Shown: positions 5,365 through 13,515, counted from the stretch's first letter. The stretch: 13,515 nucleotides of DNA from a virus (IMGVR_UViG_3300028952_000008:1-13515), one strand, 5' to 3'. The notes: generated by a model not told the origin, from the letters alone. A program made the numbers and translations.

Positions 5365-5637
5365 TTACCTCCAGATCCGTTGCTGGAAAGTGCGGGACGG
5401 ACGTGGTGGGCGTTCGGAATAAGGCAGCCTGACAGAGATTATCCAGTGCCGATAGTCGAGACTGAGAGCTTTCTTAACCTCGAACCCGCGCCTGCGGTAA
5501 GAATGAATCAGCCATTCGGCCTGTTCTTCAGTACATGGTGGGTGTTGGTACCAGTCGGTTTTAAATGCGTGTGAACGCCGCTCATGCCGGATGGCAAGGT
5601 CGGTATCAGAATTGTGAAATTTGGTTTTGTGCGCCAT
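5365..5637 (-). CDS. Hypothetical 90-aa basic protein immediately upstream of the holin
   Basis: ATG at 5637 with only a weak SD (AGAGAAAACAG-ATG); His/Arg-rich (MAHKTKFHNSDTDLAIRHERRSHAFKTDWYQHPP...). It sits 60 bp upstream of the holin and downstream of a strong terminator. No recognisable family. Confidence 0.4.
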   Translation of the reverse strand: MAHKTKFHNSDTDLAIRHERRSHAFKTDWYQHPPCTEEQAEWLIHSYRRRGFEVKKALSLDYRHWIISVRLPYSERPPRPSRTFQQRIWR

Positions 5638-5804: not shown

Positions 5805-5960
5805 TTACTCCTCAGGTTCGTAAGCTGTGAAGACAGCGACCTCCGTCTGGCCGGTTCGGATTCGTACCTCGCAGAGGTCTTTCCTCGTTACCAGTGCCGT
5901 CACTATGACGGTTAAACAGATGACGATCAGGGCGATTAACATCGCCTTTTGCTGCTTCAT
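5805..5960 (-). CDS. hok: Hok/Gef-family type I toxin (51 aa)
   Basis: Not in the ORF track (<60 aa). Hand translation: MKQQKAMLIALIVICLTVIVTALVTRKDLCEVRIRTGQTEVAVFTAYEPEE, with N-terminal TM helix and conserved C-E...R.G..EVA.F.AYE; SD AAGGAG 9 nt upstream. As I recall, near-identical to HokD/RelF and Gef. Confidence 0.9.
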   Translation of the reverse strand: MKQQKAMLIALIVICLTVIVTALVTRKDLCEVRIRTGQTEVAVFTAYEPEE

Positions 5961-6016
5961 AGCCTGCTTCTCCTTGACCTTTCGGTCCGTAAGAGGCTAA
6001 TCTCTATGTGTCGCAT
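5957..6016 (-). promoter_or_regulatory. hok leader with a translationally coupled 19-codon upstream ORF (mok-like)
   Basis: Minus-strand ATG at 6014-6016 opens MRHIEISLLRTERSRRSRL, ending in TGA that overlaps the hok ATG (ATGA). The uORF start sits in the palindrome TCTATGtgtcgCATAGA (6002-6019). Confidence 0.4.
5974..6003 (+). promoter_or_regulatory. Candidate promoter for a Sok-like antisense RNA
   Basis: Plus-strand TTGACC (5974-5979), 18-bp spacer, TAATCT (5998-6003); a transcript from about 6010 rightward would be antisense to the hok leader and uORF start region. No RNA evidence. Confidence 0.3.
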
Positions 6017-6218
6017 AGATATGGCCTCAGATTAATGTTAAGCGTCTTGCAGGACGCGTAATGTTAACTGGGGCTTTTCTCTATCTGCCTTTTGGTGTTC
6101 ATGCCTGAGACAGATAGCCTCAAGCACCCGCAGTTATTCTACTTAACTAAGATTTCCCCGCAAACCGTTTTTGTCCGGCACAGTAAATATCCAACTAAAC
6201 CAATGGCGTTCGCTGTAT

Positions 6219-7875: not shown

Positions 7876-7885
7876 NNNNNNNNNA
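7876..7885. other. Assembly gap (10 N)
   Basis: Run of n characters; true length and content unknown. Confidence 0.99.
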
Positions 7886-9836: not shown

Positions 9837-10625
9837 TTACCCCCTGAAGCCTGGCGGGATCGCACTGTCCGGAAACGAGACAGTGTTAACCTGTCGGAGC
9901 AACGTCTCAGGCCGAACACTTTTCGGCGCGAACAAGCCCTGGTATTCATTGGCGATGCTGTGTCGAATCACCTGCTCAGGGGTAAAACCCTGCTGGCGGA
10001 ATTTTTCCAGTTCCCGTATCGCCCCGTTAGCGCCCTGCTCCGTTCGAATCGGTTTTCGCAATGCCTGCCTGAACTGGACCCACTCATTCCAGAGTGTTTC
10101 TGGCAACCAGTCGGGCAGAGCAATGGCCTCCGGCTCGAATTGTTTAGACGCTCGTTTTTGCCGAGGGGGATTTAGGGGGAGATCAGTATTTATATCTTCC
10201 TCTTCCTCTTCCTCTGGTAACGCTTTTTGATCCGTTTGTGTAACGCTGGCAGCGTTACCTTTTCGCTTCAGTTCGCGTATTTTTGTAACTCTCTCGTTTG
10301 TAACCGCCCGTTTTTTCGAGCTTTTTCCGTTATGACGCTCAAAGTTTGGTAGTGAAAGCACTCCATCACTTTCGACCAGCCATCCAACCTGAATTAACGC
10401 ATCAGCAAAACCAGCCATAAAAGTGATACGGTCTATTGCACTTTTTGTAACGCCTCGAGCGTTACACTCTGCGTTACCGTCTATCATTTGTTGATCCGCC
10501 CATGCCCAGAAGCGAATGACTTTCCCTAATGCGGCATCTGGATCAATATTCAGAATCTCAGCAAGCCTGAATATTTCCGGCTTATCCGGCGTAATAACTT
10601 CGAGCTTTATCCAGTTTGAAGCCAT
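9837..10625 (-). CDS. ydaU: Putative phage replication initiator / replisome organiser (YdaU-like)
   Basis: 262 aa, ATG at 10625 with SD AAGGTG; acidic run EEEEEED mid-protein. The 5' half of the gene contains two 19-bp palindromes, reminiscent of lambda ori lying inside gene O. Immediately precedes the DnaC-like gene. Confidence 0.75.
   Translation of the reverse strand: MASNWIKLEVITPDKPEIFRLAEILNIDPDAALGKVIRFWAWADQQMIDGNAECNARGVTKSAIDRITFMAGFADALIQVGWLVESDGVLSLPNFERHNGKSSKKRAVTNERVTKIRELKRKGNAASVTQTDQKALPEEEEEEDINTDLPLNPPRQKRASKQFEPEAIALPDWLPETLWNEWVQFRQALRKPIRTEQGANGAIRELEKFRQQGFTPEQVIRHSIANEYQGLFAPKSVRPETLLRQVNTVSFPDSAIPPGFRG
10240..10258. repeat. 19-bp palindrome GTAACGCTGGCAGCGTTAC (copy 1, inside ydaU)
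   Basis: Direct reading; 7-bp arms GTAACGC/GCGTTAC with 5-bp spacer; an extra GTAACGC half-site at 10217-10223. Confidence 0.85.
10447..10465. repeat. 19-bp palindrome GTAACGCCTCGAGCGTTAC (copy 2, inside ydaU)
   Basis: Direct reading; same 7-bp arms; an extra GCGTTAC half-site at 10471-10477. Confidence 0.85.
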
Positions 10626-10638
10626 TTGTTTTCACCTT

Positions 10639-10657
10639 GTAACGCTCGCAGCGTTAC
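10639..10657. repeat. 19-bp palindrome GTAACGCTCGCAGCGTTAC (copy 3, 13 bp upstream of the ydaU start)
   Basis: Direct reading; same 7-bp arms; lies between the ydaT stop and the ydaU SD. Confidence 0.85.
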
Positions 10658-10667
10658 ATTTAACTGA

Positions 10668-10702: not shown

Positions 10703-11125
10703 TCAATGCACTACGACAGAATCGCTAGGAGAACCGCCGCCGCTGAAATGTGCTTTACGGTAAACGGCCTGGACTGCATCATCATGCGCATCAATTGCCG
10801 TACTCAGTGCATCCTGTGCCGCCAGTAATGCACGGCGTTCCAGGGTATCGAAGATGCAGAGTCGGTGACGCAGCTCGCGAGGAAGAATTGCCAGAACCGC
10901 AGGGATCAGTTTCTGAATTTTTTCCCTTTGCGCATTCGTTTCACCTTTCAACCAACGATGATAGATATTCTGCTGATTGTTCCAGTCCTTGCCTGGTACC
11001 AGGGGCAATTCGCCGCCCCCCTGGCGCAGATATTCTTCAGTAATTGCGTTAGCGACCCACGCCTGCCCTTTTTCGGCTGCCAGGGCTAACAACACTGATT
11101 CGATGTGCTCATGCTTGATTTTCAT
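10703..11125 (-). CDS. ydaT: YdaT-like protein (140 aa)
   Basis: 140 aa MKIKHEHIESVLLALAAEKGQAWVANAITEEY...; start overlaps the ydaS stop (ATGA). Size and position match Rac ydaT as I recall it. Confidence 0.8.
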   Translation of the reverse strand: MKIKHEHIESVLLALAAEKGQAWVANAITEEYLRQGGGELPLVPGKDWNNQQNIYHRWLKGETNAQREKIQKLIPAVLAILPRELRHRLCIFDTLERRALLAAQDALSTAIDAHDDAVQAVYRKAHFSGGGSPSDSVVVH

Positions 11126-11376
11126 GAATCAACTCCCATCAGCTTTTTCGTAGTAGTTTTATTTCTGCCAATAGTTAAAATTGCATCGGCAGAAAATAAT
11201 CCGTTTGATGCATGAGCGATTTTTTCAGCGTAATTTGTTTCGCCGGTATATTCTGTGCGAGGCAATTTTCCGTTATCCATCCATTTGTAGATTGCTCTTT
11301 GGCTGACACCACAAACGTCGGCCACAACAGAAACGCGAACAGTTTTGATTACATCTTCAAGTGTTTTCTGGTTCAT
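11122..11376 (-). CDS. ydaS: Cro-like HTH protein YdaS
   Basis: The ATG at 11376 has SD GAGGA; the ORF-track start at 11448 would put the N-terminus inside the operator region. MNQKTLEDVIKTVRVSVVADVCGVSQRAIYKWMDNGKLP... contains a helix-turn-helix. Divergent from racR. Confidence 0.8.
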   Translation of the reverse strand: MNQKTLEDVIKTVRVSVVADVCGVSQRAIYKWMDNGKLPRTEYTGETNYAEKIAHASNGLFSADAILTIGRNKTTTKKLMGVDS

Positions 11377-11455
11377 ATCATCCTCACAATGTGAACTTTG
11401 AGTACATGCTATAACAGAACTGACAGTACATTCAAGAGCGAATATCATTGAACTT
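11377..11455. promoter_or_regulatory. Divergent promoter/operator region between ydaS and racR (OR-like)
   Basis: 79-bp intergenic region with two direct AGTACAT motifs (11401-11407, 11425-11431) and AT-rich -10-like hexamers; racR has no clear SD, consistent with a near-leaderless maintenance transcript. Confidence 0.55.
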
Positions 11456-11875
11456 ATGGTTCATGAAGATAAAGCGCGTAAAGAGTTCGCCAGTAGGCTT
11501 GCGCTAGCCTGTGAAAACGCTGGTTATGAACAACATGGAAGGCAGGCAGAAATTGCCCGTCGAATGAAATTAACACCAAAAGCGGTTAGCAAATGGTTTA
11601 ATGGTGAAACAATTCCTCGCCGAGAGAAATTAAGGGAATTAGCAACACTCATTGGAACAACACCAACCTATCTTTTGGGAGAGGATACAGAAGAAAGTGG
11701 ACAGATACGTTTCTATCAGGAGTTAAATCCAAGACAAAAAATCATCATTGACCTTCTGGACGAGCTCCCTGACAGTGAGACAGATGAACTTTTAAAAACT
11801 CTTGAGGAGAAAAAACAGAAGTACAATGCAATTTACGAAGAGTTAGCACGAAAGAAAAAACAAAAAGCCTCTTAA
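11456..11875 (+). CDS. racR: XRE-family HTH prophage repressor
   Basis: 139 aa; HTH RQAEIARRMKLTPKAVSKWFNGETIPRREKLRELATLIG near the N-terminus; divergent from the Cro-like ydaS. The only in-frame ATG after the upstream stop is at 11456. Confidence 0.8.
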   Translation: MVHEDKARKEFASRLALACENAGYEQHGRQAEIARRMKLTPKAVSKWFNGETIPRREKLRELATLIGTTPTYLLGEDTEESGQIRFYQELNPRQKIIIDLLDELPDSETDELLKTLEEKKQKYNAIYEELARKKKQKAS

Positions 11876-11939
11876 ACCAGCATAAATCCGGTAGCGTCCC
11901 CCTCCGGGTTTGTGCTTCACTTTATCCCGTCTCATTTTT

Positions 11940-12000
11940 TTATACATAAAATGTACTTAAAGTACTTTACAATGATGAACACAAAGTACATTATATACCT
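11940..12000. promoter_or_regulatory. Second operator-like cluster downstream of racR (OL-like)
   Basis: ATGTACT (11951-11957) and AGTACAT (11985-11991) form an inverted pair around the palindrome AAGTACTT (11960-11967); TTTACA and TATATA promoter-like hexamers nearby. Confidence 0.45.
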
Positions 12001-12173
12001 ACCAACCCACCCCGCCCCACAGAACGCCGGGCAATACTTCGAGTTACCAGGCAGTGGTCAGGGGTTAAGTAGCCAGCCCGAGGCGTATGAACATGACGGC
12101 GGGGTTCAACTTTAATAACTATGCAGCAGGTTTTTGTTCCGCTACCCCGGCGTTAAGGGGAAATGAGGTCAGC

Positions 12174-12329
12174 ATGGATACTATCGATCTTGGCAACAAC
12201 GAATCTCTGGTGTACGGCGTGTTTCCAAACCAGGACGGCACCTTCACCGCAATGACGTATACAAAAAGCAAAACGTTTAAAACCGAAAATGGTGCGCGCC
12301 GATGGTTGGAGAAGCACACAGTAAGCTAA
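12174..12329 (+). CDS. Small hypothetical protein (51 aa), YdaF/YdaG-like by position
   Basis: ATG at 12174 with SD TGAGGT 6 nt upstream: MDTIDLGNNESLVYGVFPNQDGTFTAMTYTKSKTFKTENGARRWLEKHTVS. The ORF track extends it to an ATG at 12087 that has poor SD spacing. Confidence 0.5.
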   Translation: MDTIDLGNNESLVYGVFPNQDGTFTAMTYTKSKTFKTENGARRWLEKHTVS

Positions 12330-13254: not shown

Positions 13255-13440
13255 ATGATTGCACATCACTTCGGAACTGATGAAATACCACGTCAGTGTG
13301 TGACTCCTGGCGATTATGTTCTTCATGAAGGCCGGACATATATTGCCTCGGCAAACAATATTAAAAAGCGAAAACTATATATTCGTAACCTGACCACAAA
13401 AACATGCATTACTGACCGGGTAATGACTCCAACTTATTGA
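13255..13440 (+). CDS. kilR: Small protein (61 aa) at the position of KilR (Rac FtsZ/division inhibitor)
   Basis: ATG at 13255 with SD GGAG 6 nt upstream (the ORF-track start 13243 lacks an SD): [61 protein letters not shown]. Assignment rests mainly on position divergent from sieB. Confidence 0.5.
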
Positions 13441-13515
13441 TAGTGTTTTATGTTCAGATAATGCCCGATGACTTTGTCATGCAGCTCCACCGATTTTGAG
13501 AACGACAGCGACTTC

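What the first reader, a model, noticed from the sequence alone, without database searches (positions are those of the whole stretch)
11377..12000. Four AGTACAT motifs flanking racR: candidate operator half-sites on both sides of the repressor gene
AGTACAT occurs twice as direct repeats in the racR-ydaS intergenic region (11401, 11425) and twice more in inverted orientation just downstream of racR (11951-11957 reverse, 11985-11991), the latter bracketing the palindrome AAGTACTT (11960-11967). Four copies of a 7-mer within about 600 bp, all in intergenic DNA beside a repressor gene, is far above chance. It suggests an OR/OL-like pair of operator clusters.
Basis: seen in the sequence. Interest (0 to 1): 0.5.

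Follow-up and report, generated by a model that had tools for sequence, protein, structure and literature searches.

The report
HK022-type operators flanking a prophage repressor
The four AGTACAT copies are pieces of five 15-bp repressor-binding sites (three upstream, two downstream) of a textbook lambda-like prophage on/off switch of the already characterised HK022/933W type, so the feature is real but ordinary, and the gene beside it is not the K-12 racR.

Summary
The statistical argument fails: some 7-mer reaches 4 copies in 624 bp in over 90% of simulated windows.

The real unit is a 15-bp near-palindrome, TGWAC-N5-GTWCA. There are five sites:
- oR1 11392-11406, oR2 11416-11430 and oR3 11449-11463 (over the repressor ATG);
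- oL2 11952-11966 and oL1 11976-11990.

Spacings are 24 and 33 bp upstream and 24 bp downstream. AGTACAT is one half-site plus flanking bases.

Matrices built only from the annotated operators of 933W or HK022 rank these five sites as the top five in the 13.5-kb window. The curated HK022 pR and pL hexamers map onto the window at identical offsets. Nine related loci with different repressor gene sizes and gene contexts keep the 3+2 layout.

The gene is not K-12 racR. It encodes a 139-aa protein with an HK022/933W-type DNA-binding domain and a DicA-type C-terminal domain, without the S24 self-cleavage domain. It lies in an ~870-bp immunity cassette swapped into a Rac-like prophage. K-12 carries its own motif at the same positions.

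Verdict: the OR/OL idea is right, several details are wrong, and this is a new member of a known kind. Binding by this protein has not been tested.

The parts
11392..11406 (.). oR1-like operator TGAACTTTGAGTACA (contains AGTACAT copy 1). Lies just downstream of the pR -10, next to the cro-like gene.
   Evidence: Same offset as the HK022 oR site at 430-444 in X16093.
11416..11430 (.). oR2-like operator AGAACTGACAGTACA (contains AGTACAT copy 2). Lies 24 bp from oR1, in the pR spacer, and overlaps the -35 of the repressor promoter.
Lies 33 bp from oR2 and covers the repressor start codon (ATG 11456-11458). Identical in sequence to HK022 oR1 and oR3.
   Evidence: The annotated 933W-type OR3 likewise covers the cI ATG.
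11952..11966 (.). oL2-like operator TGTACTTAAAGTACT. Its last base is the first base of the pL -35.
11976..11990 (.). oL1-like operator TGAACACAAAGTACA (contains AGTACAT copy 4). Lies 24 bp from oL2, in the pL spacer, and overlaps the first 2 bases of the pL -10. It is the lowest-scoring of the five (A at position 6).
11966..11994 (+). pL-like promoter TTTACA-17-CATTAT (-35 at 11966-11971, -10 at 11989-11994). Predicted start is near 12001. It would drive ydaF, kil and the genes beyond.
   Evidence: Consensus scan. Same offsets as the curated HK022 pL -35 and -10. Conserved in 6 loci.
11408..11435 (-). pR-like promoter on the cro strand: -35 TTGAAT (11435-11430), 16-bp spacer holding oR2, -10 TATAGC (11413-11408) preceded by TG. 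An alternative is TTGAAT-18-TAGCAT. The -10 is degenerate compared with CATAAT in relatives.
   Evidence: Offsets transferred from the curated HK022 pR annotation. Alignment. Not found by the consensus scan.
11420..11448 (+). Repressor-maintenance (PRM-like) promoter CTGACA-17-TATCAT. The -10 ends 7 nt before the A of the ATG, which predicts a leaderless repressor mRNA.
   Evidence: A TANNNT hexamer sits at the same fixed position in 7 of 7 loci. Leaderless repressor mRNAs are shown for K-12 racR (PMC9638921) and paaR2 (PMC8630535). The start site here is inferred only.
11456..11875 (+). Repressor gene, 139 aa (WP_000233319.1). It combines an HK022/933W-type HTH domain (recognition helix PKAVSKWFN) with a DicA-type helical C-terminal domain and has no S24 peptidase domain. 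It is NOT K-12 RacR.
11122..11376 (-). Cro-like gene, 84 aa (WP_001072342.1). It is 59% identical to HK022 Cro and 44% to 933W-type Cro, and is not K-12 YdaS.
11132..12003 (.). Swapped immunity cassette of about 870 bp: cro-like gene, OR, repressor gene, and OL/pL. It is unrelated to K-12 Rac between near-identical flanks. The left edge abuts the YdaT box and the right edge lies at about the pL start site.
   Evidence: Alignment with K-12. The cassette alone is found in 1049 of 5426 E. coli genomes and in phage Tritos in a different gene context.
11115..11132 (.). Perfect YdaT (CII-like) box TTGATTTTCATGAATCAA over the ydaT start codon. It lies outside the cassette and is distinct from the operators.
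   Evidence: Consensus from PMC9986795 and PMC11879457.

Best explanation
The window carries the immunity (lysis-lysogeny) switch of a Rac-like lambdoid prophage, and its immunity module is of the HK022/933W type.

The 139-aa repressor, presumably a dimer, recognises 15-bp dyads TGWAC-N5-GTWCA. Three lie between the divergent repressor and cro-like genes (oR1, oR2, oR3). Two lie 77-115 bp past the repressor stop codon (oL2, oL1).

Proposed mechanism:
- Occupancy of oR1 and oR2 blocks pR. pR drives the cro-like gene, ydaT, and the ydaU/ydaV replication genes.
- Occupancy of oL2 and oL1 covers the -35 and -10 of pL. pL drives ydaF, kil and the recombination/excision arm.
- oR3 lies over the start of a probably leaderless repressor mRNA and would give negative autoregulation.
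- The Cro-like protein is expected to use the same sites with a different order of preference.
- The repressor has a DicA-type C-terminal domain instead of an S24 self-cleavage domain. Induction is therefore expected to be independent of RecA-stimulated cleavage, for example through an antirepressor.

Shown here: the sites, their geometry, their conservation, their overlap with promoter hexamers, and the homology of protein and DNA to characterised systems.

Inferred: actual binding, order of occupancy, activation versus repression at the repressor promoter, cooperativity or looping, and the induction route.
For: 1. Five matches to TGWAC-N5-GTWCA, all within the two clusters.
2. Independent matrices rank them 1-5 in the window. 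The 933W-derived matrix gives 16.0-10.6 with the next hit at 8.6, and no more than 3 positions reached the fifth site's score in any of 200 simulated windows. The HK022-derived matrix gives 20.0-13.2 with the next hit at 9.9.
3. The curated HK022 record X16093 has oR sites at 24/33-bp spacing with the third over the cI start, and oL sites 24 bp apart. Its pR and pL hexamers sit at offsets that land on TTGAAT/TATAGC and TTTACA/CATTAT in the window. The 933W-type record has the same layout.
4. For the 933W repressor a 15-bp symmetric site is shown experimentally, with G2, A4 and C5 critical and S41, K42 and K46 as contacts (PMC3317979). The window protein keeps K42 and K46 within PKAVSKWFN. HK022 has PKAISKWFN.
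5. Footprint over 33 sites in 7 loci: G2, A4, C5, G11 and T12 are invariant. Half-site identity is 0.88-0.93 against 0.50-0.55 in flanking DNA.
6. The 3+2 layout holds whether the repressor is short or carries an S24 domain. It also holds whether OL lies 77 bp, about 900 bp (beyond a HigB/HigA pair) or 2.3 kb downstream.
7. Reciprocal control: K-12 Rac has 3+2 copies of its own RacR motif at the same positions and none of this motif. The window has none of the RacR motif.
8. Both clusters lie inside the swapped cassette.
9. Silencing racR in K-12 derepresses the arm downstream of racR (bioRxiv 10.64898/2026.09.06.749655). DicA controls both dicCp and dicBp (PMC10448788).
Against: - There are no binding or expression data for this particular protein or cassette.
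- The pR -10 here (TATAGC) lacks the conserved final T that relatives have (CATAAT), so pR may be weak or shifted.
- oL1 has an A at position 6, a base the 933W repressor disfavours (PMC3317979), and it scores lowest.
- oR2 is centred about 33 bp upstream of the predicted repressor mRNA start and overlaps its -35. Lambda-style activation from oR2 therefore cannot be assumed.
- A review states that the 933W cI mRNA has a Shine-Dalgarno sequence (PMC5977221). This conflicts with the leaderless inference for the family, and the primary paper was not available.
- The C-terminal domain differs from those of HK022 and 933W, so cooperativity and looping cannot be carried over. HK022 CI is cooperative and loops, while the 933W repressor is not cooperative.
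Confidence: 0.85

Rival explanations
1. Chance: AGTACAT is an accidental local cluster of a 7-mer in AT-rich intergenic DNA and has no function.
For: A selection-corrected test shows that 4 copies of some 7-mer in 624 bp is ordinary. A fifth, clearly non-functional copy exists at 5530.
Against: The copies extend to 15-bp dyads with fixed 24/33/24-bp spacing. Matrices made from other phages' annotated operators rank them top 5. None of 300 simulated windows had a 24-bp pair. The sites are conserved in 9 related loci while the flanks diverge.
Confidence: 0.01
2. The sites are a relic. They are homologous to operators, but the switch in this cryptic prophage is decayed: pR is dead, or the repressor is a truncated cI that no longer works.
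For: The pR -10 is degenerate (TATAGC versus CATAAT). The repressor lacks the S24 domain of HK022 and 933W cI. The prophage carries IS1 and frameshifted genes.
Against: The short form is a conserved family, not a truncation. Its C-terminal domain is conserved between E. coli and Salmonella at 62-65% overall identity and is homologous to DicA's. The cassette is 97-100% conserved in 1049 genomes. It is also present in phage records, including Tritos and three vB_EcoS phages. All invariant operator positions are intact.
Confidence: 0.08
3. The sites are used mainly or only by another regulator: either the Cro-like protein alone, or YdaT (CII-like).
For: In lambdoid switches Cro binds the same operators. 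PaaR2 and YdaS footprints overlap in CP-933P (PMC8630535). YdaT binds the K-12 intergenic region (PMC11879457).
Against: The YdaT box is TTGATT-N6-AATCAA. The perfect copy lies at 11115-11132, outside the cassette, and none lies in either cluster. ydaT is shared with K-12 (94% identity) whereas the motif is cassette-specific. The half-site matches what 933W cI contacts through residues conserved in this repressor (PMC3317979). Shared use by Cro complements the best explanation and is not an alternative to it.
Confidence: 0.05

Closest known systems
Phage HK022 immunity region (cI, cro, oR1-3, oL1-3, pR, pL; Oberto et al. 1989 record X16093; Carlson and Little 1993, as cited in PMC8053113)
   Same: - Same 15-bp operator family; oR3 here equals HK022 oR1/oR3, TGAACTTATGGTTCA.
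- Same 24/33 and 24-bp spacing, and the third site lies over the repressor ATG.
- Same positions of the pR and pL hexamers relative to the sites.
- The recognition helix differs by one conservative residue (V/I).
- Cro is 59% identical, and the DNA is about 70% identical across cro, OR and the cI N-terminus.
   Different: - The repressor C-terminal domain is DicA-like and there is no S24 domain.
- There is no OL3 53 bp upstream of oL2 and no OFR site.
- There is no Nun or put context; the pL leader is the Rac one shared with K-12.
- Cooperativity and looping, shown for HK022 CI, are untested here.
Stx phage 933W repressor and operators (OR1-3, OL1-2; Koudelka and Friedman labs; PMC3317979)
   Same: - 15-bp symmetric site with G2-(A/T)3-A4-C5.
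- Three OR sites and only two OL sites, with OR3 over the annotated cI ATG.
- N-terminal domain 51% identical, with K42 and K46 conserved.
- A matrix from 933W sites scores the window sites 10.6-16.0, in or just below the range of 933W's own sites (12.8-17.8 with the same matrix).
   Different: - Position 1/15 is mostly C/G in 933W and T/A here.
- S41 is P41 here.
- OR2-OR3 spacing is 32 bp rather than 33.
- OL lies 2.3 kb away beyond stk and other genes.
- 933W cI has an S24 domain and is reported to be non-cooperative.
DicA/DicC/dicBp of the Qin prophage (PMC10448788)
   Same: - Short repressor (135 versus 139 aa) with a homologous C-terminal helical domain and no RecA cleavage site.
- Divergent cro-like gene.
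- A PL-like promoter just downstream of the repressor gene, followed by a DUF1391 gene (ydfA/ydaF).
- Operators at both promoters.
   Different: - Only 28% identity.
- The DNA-binding specificity differs: DicA-region dyads read TTAG...CTAA (read by eye).
- The match falls below the NCBIfam DicA cutoff (56 versus 101 bits).
K-12 Rac RacR/YdaS and CP-933P PaaR2/YdaS switches (PMC9638921, PMC8630535)
   Same: - Same prophage backbone and gene order; ydaT is 94% identical.
- Same logic: divergent repressor and cro genes, multiple operators, and a site over the repressor ATG.
- Leaderless repressor mRNA.
- PL933P/OL is shown in CP-933P.
   Different: - Repressor, cro and operator sequences are unrelated (TAGGC-n3-GCCTA and GTTTAGTAA respectively).
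- These are heteroimmune cassettes.

Membership tests
HK022/933W-type lambdoid immunity operators | 15-bp rotationally symmetric site, YGWAC-N5-GTWCR, with G2, A4 and C5 conserved | tested here: met
   Five sites. Matrices from annotated 933W and HK022 sites rank them 1-5. G2, A4, C5, G11 and T12 are invariant in 33 sites.
HK022/933W-type lambdoid immunity operators | Three OR sites between divergent cI and cro genes, spaced 24 and 32-33 bp, with the third over the repressor start codon | tested here: met
   Sites at 11392, 11416 and 11449, with the ATG at 11456. Compare X16093 sites at 430, 454 and 487 with the cI start at 494, and GQ499361 sites at 27, 51 and 83 with the cI start at 90.
HK022/933W-type lambdoid immunity operators | Two OL sites 24 bp apart overlapping the -35 and -10 of a pL that reads away from the repressor gene | tested here: met
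   Sites at 11952 and 11976 with TTTACA-17-CATTAT. Offsets are identical to the curated HK022 pL.
HK022/933W-type lambdoid immunity operators | Cognate repressor N-terminal domain with recognition helix (S/P)K(G/A)(V/I)SKWFN, with K42 and K46 as base contacts, plus a cognate Cro | tested here: met
   Alignments A2 and A6. Contacts from PMC3317979. Cro is 59% identical to HK022 Cro and 44% to 933W-type Cro.
HK022/933W-type lambdoid immunity operators | Repressor carries a C-terminal S24 (LexA-like) self-cleavage and oligomerisation domain | tested here: not met
   Pfam finds only HTH families. The alignment shows the S24 part is absent. The C-terminus matches DicA. Membership therefore holds for the operator/DNA-binding module, not for the whole repressor.
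HK022/933W-type lambdoid immunity operators | Demonstrated binding of the repressor to the sites | not testable with these tools
   Needs EMSA, footprinting or ChIP.
K-12 RacR/YdaS system | Repressor orthologous to RacR (NCBIfam NF049929) | tested here: not met
   12 of 33 residues identical, in the HTH only. 13.7 bits against a cutoff of 200.
K-12 RacR/YdaS system | Operators (T/A)TAGGC-n3-GCCTA(T/A) | tested here: not met
   0 matches in the window against 5 in the K-12 locus. Motif from PMC9638921.
K-12 RacR/YdaS system | Position in a Rac-type prophage between ydaT/ydaU and ydaF/sieB/kil | tested here: met
   Annotation and flank identity.
DicA-type short prophage repressors | About 135-140 aa: an HTH_3 domain plus a DicA-like C-terminal helical domain, with no RecA cleavage site or S24 domain | tested here: inconclusive
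   PRK09706 gives E = 2.7e-15 over residues 29-137, and the C-terminal 62 aa alone give E = 4e-7, but 56 bits is below the curated cutoff of 101. BLASTP gives 28% identity, E = 8e-15. The AF2 model has helices 92-103 and 106-138 after a disordered linker.
DicA-type short prophage repressors | Control by an antirepressor rather than RecA-stimulated cleavage | not tested
   Shown for DicA and Rem (PMC10448788). No antirepressor was sought or identified here.

The most novel reading that the evidence does not exclude
The repressor is a natural domain chimera. It couples HK022/933W-type operator specificity to a DicA-type C-terminal domain that RecA cannot cleave, and it resides in about 19% of complete E. 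coli genomes, including O157:H7 and O111 strains.

Its half-sites are essentially those of HK022 and overlap those of 933W. It could therefore give SOS-insensitive cross-immunity against HK022-immunity phages. It could also cross-talk with 933W-type Shiga-toxin prophages in either direction: the Rac-like repressor damping Stx-phage pR/pL, or Stx-phage cI holding the Rac-like prophage silent. Either would influence Stx-phage induction.
Probability: 0.2. Interest if true: 0.6.

Novelty: new member of a known kind. Interest (0 to 1): 0.25.

Why it matters
The main value is correct annotation. The 'racR' of roughly a fifth of E. coli genomes is a different, heteroimmune repressor. Its five operators, pR, pL and maintenance promoter can now be placed to the base by homology with HK022 and 933W. 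Results on K-12 RacR (operators, cross-talk with C proteins, essentiality) should not be transferred to these strains.

The analysis also shows cleanly that lambdoid immunity modules swap as units: cro, OR, the repressor gene and OL/pL together. The breakpoints lie at the YdaT box on one side and at the pL start site on the other.

The hybrid repressor raises a testable question of cross-immunity with HK022-type and Stx (933W-type) phages.

Tried and rejected
- **7-mer enrichment as evidence:** rejected after a selection-corrected simulation.
- **K-12 RacR operators as the explanation:** the motif is absent from the window.
- **YdaT/CII-like sites:** the box lies elsewhere, at 11115-11132.
- **Structured or antitermination (put/nut-like) RNA in the conserved pL leader 12000-12175:** no Rfam match, even at E up to 1, and folding no better than shuffled sequence (z = 0.32).
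- **Terminator between the repressor stop codon and oL2:** none found by the scan.
- **OL3- or OFR-like extra sites in the window:** nothing above a matrix score of 10 outside the five sites.
- **Fold search with the AF2 model:** it returned only generic XRE HTH domains and gave no informative match for the C-terminal domain.
- **Primary 933W papers (PMC524894, PMC3133280):** not held. The 933W PRM start site and the Shine-Dalgarno statement could not be checked.
- **One literature search for HK022 repressor papers:** mostly noise.

Full report
**Observation.** AGTACAT occurs at 11401, 11425 and 11985 on the plus strand and at 11951-11957 on the minus strand. AAGTACTT is at 11960-11967. All of these lie in non-coding DNA on either side of the ORF 11456-11875. 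A fifth copy sits at 5530.

Allowing for the choice of 7-mer after looking, more than 90% of Markov-simulated windows contain some 7-mer with at least 4 copies in 624 bp. About 17 other 7-mers do the same in the real window.

**The real unit.** The flanks of the copies are related (GAAC-N4-AGTACAT). The unit is a 15-bp near-palindrome, TGWAC-N5-GTWCA. With up to one mismatch it occurs five times in the 13.5-kb window, and all five are in the two clusters:

| Site | Coordinates | Sequence |
|---|---|---|
| oR1 | 11392-11406 | TGAACTTTGAGTACA |
| oR2 | 11416-11430 | AGAACTGACAGTACA |
| oR3 | 11449-11463 | TGAACTTATGGTTCA (over the ATG at 11456) |
| oL2 | 11952-11966 | TGTACTTAAAGTACT |
| oL1 | 11976-11990 | TGAACACAAAGTACA |

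Spacings are 24 and 33 bp upstream and 24 bp downstream. AGTACAT is the right half-site GTACA plus one base on each side. The 'inverted' copy is the left half of oL2, and the 'palindrome' is its right half. GTAC is self-complementary, which produces the apparent mix of orientations. The copy at 5530 has no partner half-site (score -3.4).

**Identity of the locus.** The window is a Rac-like prophage of E. coli, 100% identical to strain TUM10008. The repressor is not RacR. It is a 139-aa HTH_3 protein with only 12 of 33 identities to K-12 RacR, and it scores 13.7 bits against the NCBIfam RacR cutoff of 200. The divergent 84-aa gene is not YdaS. YdaT, in contrast, is 94% identical to the K-12 protein.

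A DNA alignment with K-12 shows near-identity left of about 11131 and right of about 12004, with unrelated sequence between. This is an immunity cassette of roughly 870 bp holding the cro-like gene, OR, the repressor gene and the downstream cluster. Its left edge abuts a perfect YdaT box (TTGATTTTCATGAATCAA, 11115-11132). Its right edge lies a few bases after the pL-like -10.

**Independent tests against characterised systems.** The repressor's N-terminal domain is 51% identical to 933W-type cI and 46% to HK022 cI. The Cro-like protein is 59% identical to HK022 Cro.

A 933W-type record (GQ499361) annotates 15-bp OR1, OR2 and OR3 sites spaced 24 and 32 bp, with OR3 over the cI ATG. It also annotates OL2 and OL1, which are 24 bp apart in the 15-bp register. 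The sequences are CGTAC-N5-GTACG, TGAAC-N5-GTTTT, CGTAC-N5-GTTCA, CGTAC-N5-GTTCT and CGAAC-N5-GTTCA.

The original HK022 record (X16093) annotates three oR sites (spacing 24 and 33 bp, the third over the cI start) and two oL sites (24 bp apart), together with the pR and pL hexamers. HK75 carries the same features with their names.

A matrix built only from the five 933W sites ranks the window's five sites 1-5, with scores of 16.0-10.6 and the next hit at 8.6. In 200 simulated windows at most 3 positions reached 10.6. A matrix from the five HK022 sites gives the same ranking (20.0-13.2, next 9.9). No simulated window in 300 had a pair of hits 24 bp apart, against two pairs observed.

Transferring the HK022 promoter offsets gives the following in the window:
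- pR -35 TTGAAT (11435-11430) and -10 TATAGC (11413-11408) on the minus strand;
- pL -35 TTTACA (11966-11971) and -10 CATTAT (11989-11994). The consensus scan had found this pL independently.

**Experimental basis in the relatives.** The 933W repressor binds a 15-bp symmetric site. G2, A4 and C5 are critical, position 3 may be A or T, and position 1 matters little. S41, K42 and K46 of the recognition helix make the contacts (PMC3317979). The window protein reads P41-K42-A-V-S-K46-W-F-N, HK022 reads P-K-A-I-S-K-W-F-N, and 933W reads S-K-G-V-S-K-W-F-N. HK022 CI binds adjacent operators cooperatively and loops OL to OR in vivo (PMC8053113). The 933W repressor is reported to be non-cooperative (PMC3317979).

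**Comparative footprint.** The same 3+2 layout is found in all of these:
- an E. coli relative with an 89% identical repressor;
- two Salmonella prophages with 62-65% identical short-form repressors, where the OL pair lies beyond a HigB/HigA module;
- a Citrobacter phage with a repressor carrying an S24 domain;
- HK022, a 933W-type phage, phage vB_EcoS-673R7 and phage Tritos.

The Klebsiella phage locus shows the three OR sites, but its OL lies outside the stretch fetched. Over 33 sites from seven loci, G2, A4, C5, G11 and T12 are invariant and C14 is present in 32 of 33. Half-site columns average 0.88 (OR) and 0.93 (OL) pairwise identity, against 0.55 and 0.50 for flanking and inter-site columns.

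K-12 Rac serves as a reciprocal control. It has no hit above 10 with this matrix. It has five copies of its own published RacR motif, TAGGC-N3-GCCTA: three in the racR-ydaS spacer and two just downstream of racR. The window has none. The motif therefore changes with the repressor while the architecture stays the same.

**The repressor's C-terminus.** The protein lacks the S24 domain of HK022, 933W and the Klebsiella and Citrobacter relatives. Residues 88-137 are homologous to the C-terminal domain of DicA, the Qin prophage repressor. NCBIfam PRK09706 gives E = 2.7e-15 for the whole protein and 4e-7 for the last 62 residues, below the curated cutoff. BLASTP gives 28% identity, E = 8e-15.

The short form is a conserved family in E. 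coli and Salmonella. The AF2 model (pLDDT 83) shows an HTH domain, a disordered linker at 77-86, and helices 92-103 and 106-138. The fold search added nothing.

DicA is 135 aa, lacks a RecA cleavage site, is relieved by the antirepressor Rem, and controls both dicCp (PR-like) and dicBp (PL-like) (PMC10448788). Qin also has the same gene order, with a DUF1391 gene after the PL-like promoter.

**Mechanism.** The shown and inferred steps are separated under Best explanation. In brief:
- Repressor at oR1 and oR2 occludes pR.
- Repressor at oL2 and oL1 occludes pL.
- oR3 covers the start of the repressor mRNA.

A TANNNT hexamer (TATCAT here, 11443-11448) ends 7 nt before the A of the ATG in all seven loci, which predicts a leaderless mRNA. 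Leaderless repressor mRNAs are shown for K-12 racR and paaR2. One review says the 933W cI mRNA has a Shine-Dalgarno sequence, and I could not check this.

In K-12, depleting RacR induces ydaG, kilR, ydaE, racC, recET, ralR, xisR and intR. That is the arm a pL at this position would drive.

**Caveats.**
- The pR -10 is degenerate here.
- oL1 is the weakest site.
- The effect of oR2 on the repressor promoter is unknown.
- Cooperativity and looping with a DicA-type C-terminal domain are unknown.

**Frequency and novelty.** The cassette alone is present in 1049 of 5426 complete E. coli genomes at 97-100% identity. It is also in phage Tritos, where it is flanked by a Qin-type ydfABC-DicF-dicB arm and a different replication module. 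It is therefore a portable immunity module.

The operator family, the OR/OL architecture and short DicA-type repressors are all known. What is new is only this combination and its base-level annotation. In the papers I could search I found no experimental work on this cassette.

Noticed in passing
L002 (K-12 MG1655 Rac) 2131-2143 and 2156-2168, between racR and ydaG: Two copies of the published RacR operator motif (TAGGTAATGCCTA and TAGGCTATGCCTA, 25 bp apart) lie just downstream of K-12 racR. On the racR strand they overlap a strong promoter-like TTGACA-17-TATAGT. This looks like an OL/PL for RacR. The RacR paper I could search in full (PMC9638921) describes only intergenic operators and never mentions ydaG, ydaF or kilR. 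A 2026 preprint reports that this arm is induced when racR is silenced.
   Followed up: partly
window 10217-10661: Three 20-bp inverted repeats, GTAACGC-N-GCGTTAC (10239-10262, 10446-10469, 10638-10661), are spaced about 200 bp apart, giving 8 copies of GCGTTAC in all. They lie in the 5' half of the ydaU-like replication-initiator gene and in the ydaT-ydaU spacer. They may be origin or initiator binding sites.
   Followed up: no
window 11115-11132: A perfect YdaT (CII-like) box, TTGATTTTCATGAATCAA, lies over the ydaT start codon. It coincides with the left breakpoint of the swapped immunity cassette.
   Followed up: partly
window 12004-12173: The leader downstream of the pL-like promoter is about 99% identical between this prophage and the heteroimmune K-12 Rac over its first ~110 bases (to about 12110) and patchy beyond, so the cassette breakpoint sits at about the transcription start. 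There is no Rfam match and folding is not unusual (z = 0.32). K-12's ydaG is absent here.
   Followed up: partly
window 11408-11413 (minus strand): The pR -10 is TATAGC here and TGTATG in the 89%-identical E. coli relative. HK022, 933W-type, the Citrobacter phage and the Salmonella relative have CATAAT, and the Klebsiella phage has CTTAAT. The lytic promoter may be weakened in the E. coli short-repressor lineage.
   Followed up: no
window 5958-6129 (minus strand): An Rfam sok antitoxin RNA (106.7 bits) overlaps an annotated Hok/Gef family gene (about 6018-6116). This is a hok/sok module inside the prophage.
   Followed up: no
window 7876-7885: A run of 10 N (masked or unknown bases) lies in the window.
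   Followed up: no
window 13255-13515: In the matching RefSeq record, the kil gene (13255-13440) is followed directly by an IS1 transposase and then a partial kilR. IS1 has therefore split kilR in this prophage.
   Followed up: no
L009 3053-3720 and L010 3088-3755 (Salmonella prophages): A HigB-toxin/HTH-antitoxin pair is inserted between the short repressor gene and the OL pair. This is the same position as paaA2-parE2 in CP-933P and rexAB in lambda.
   Followed up: no
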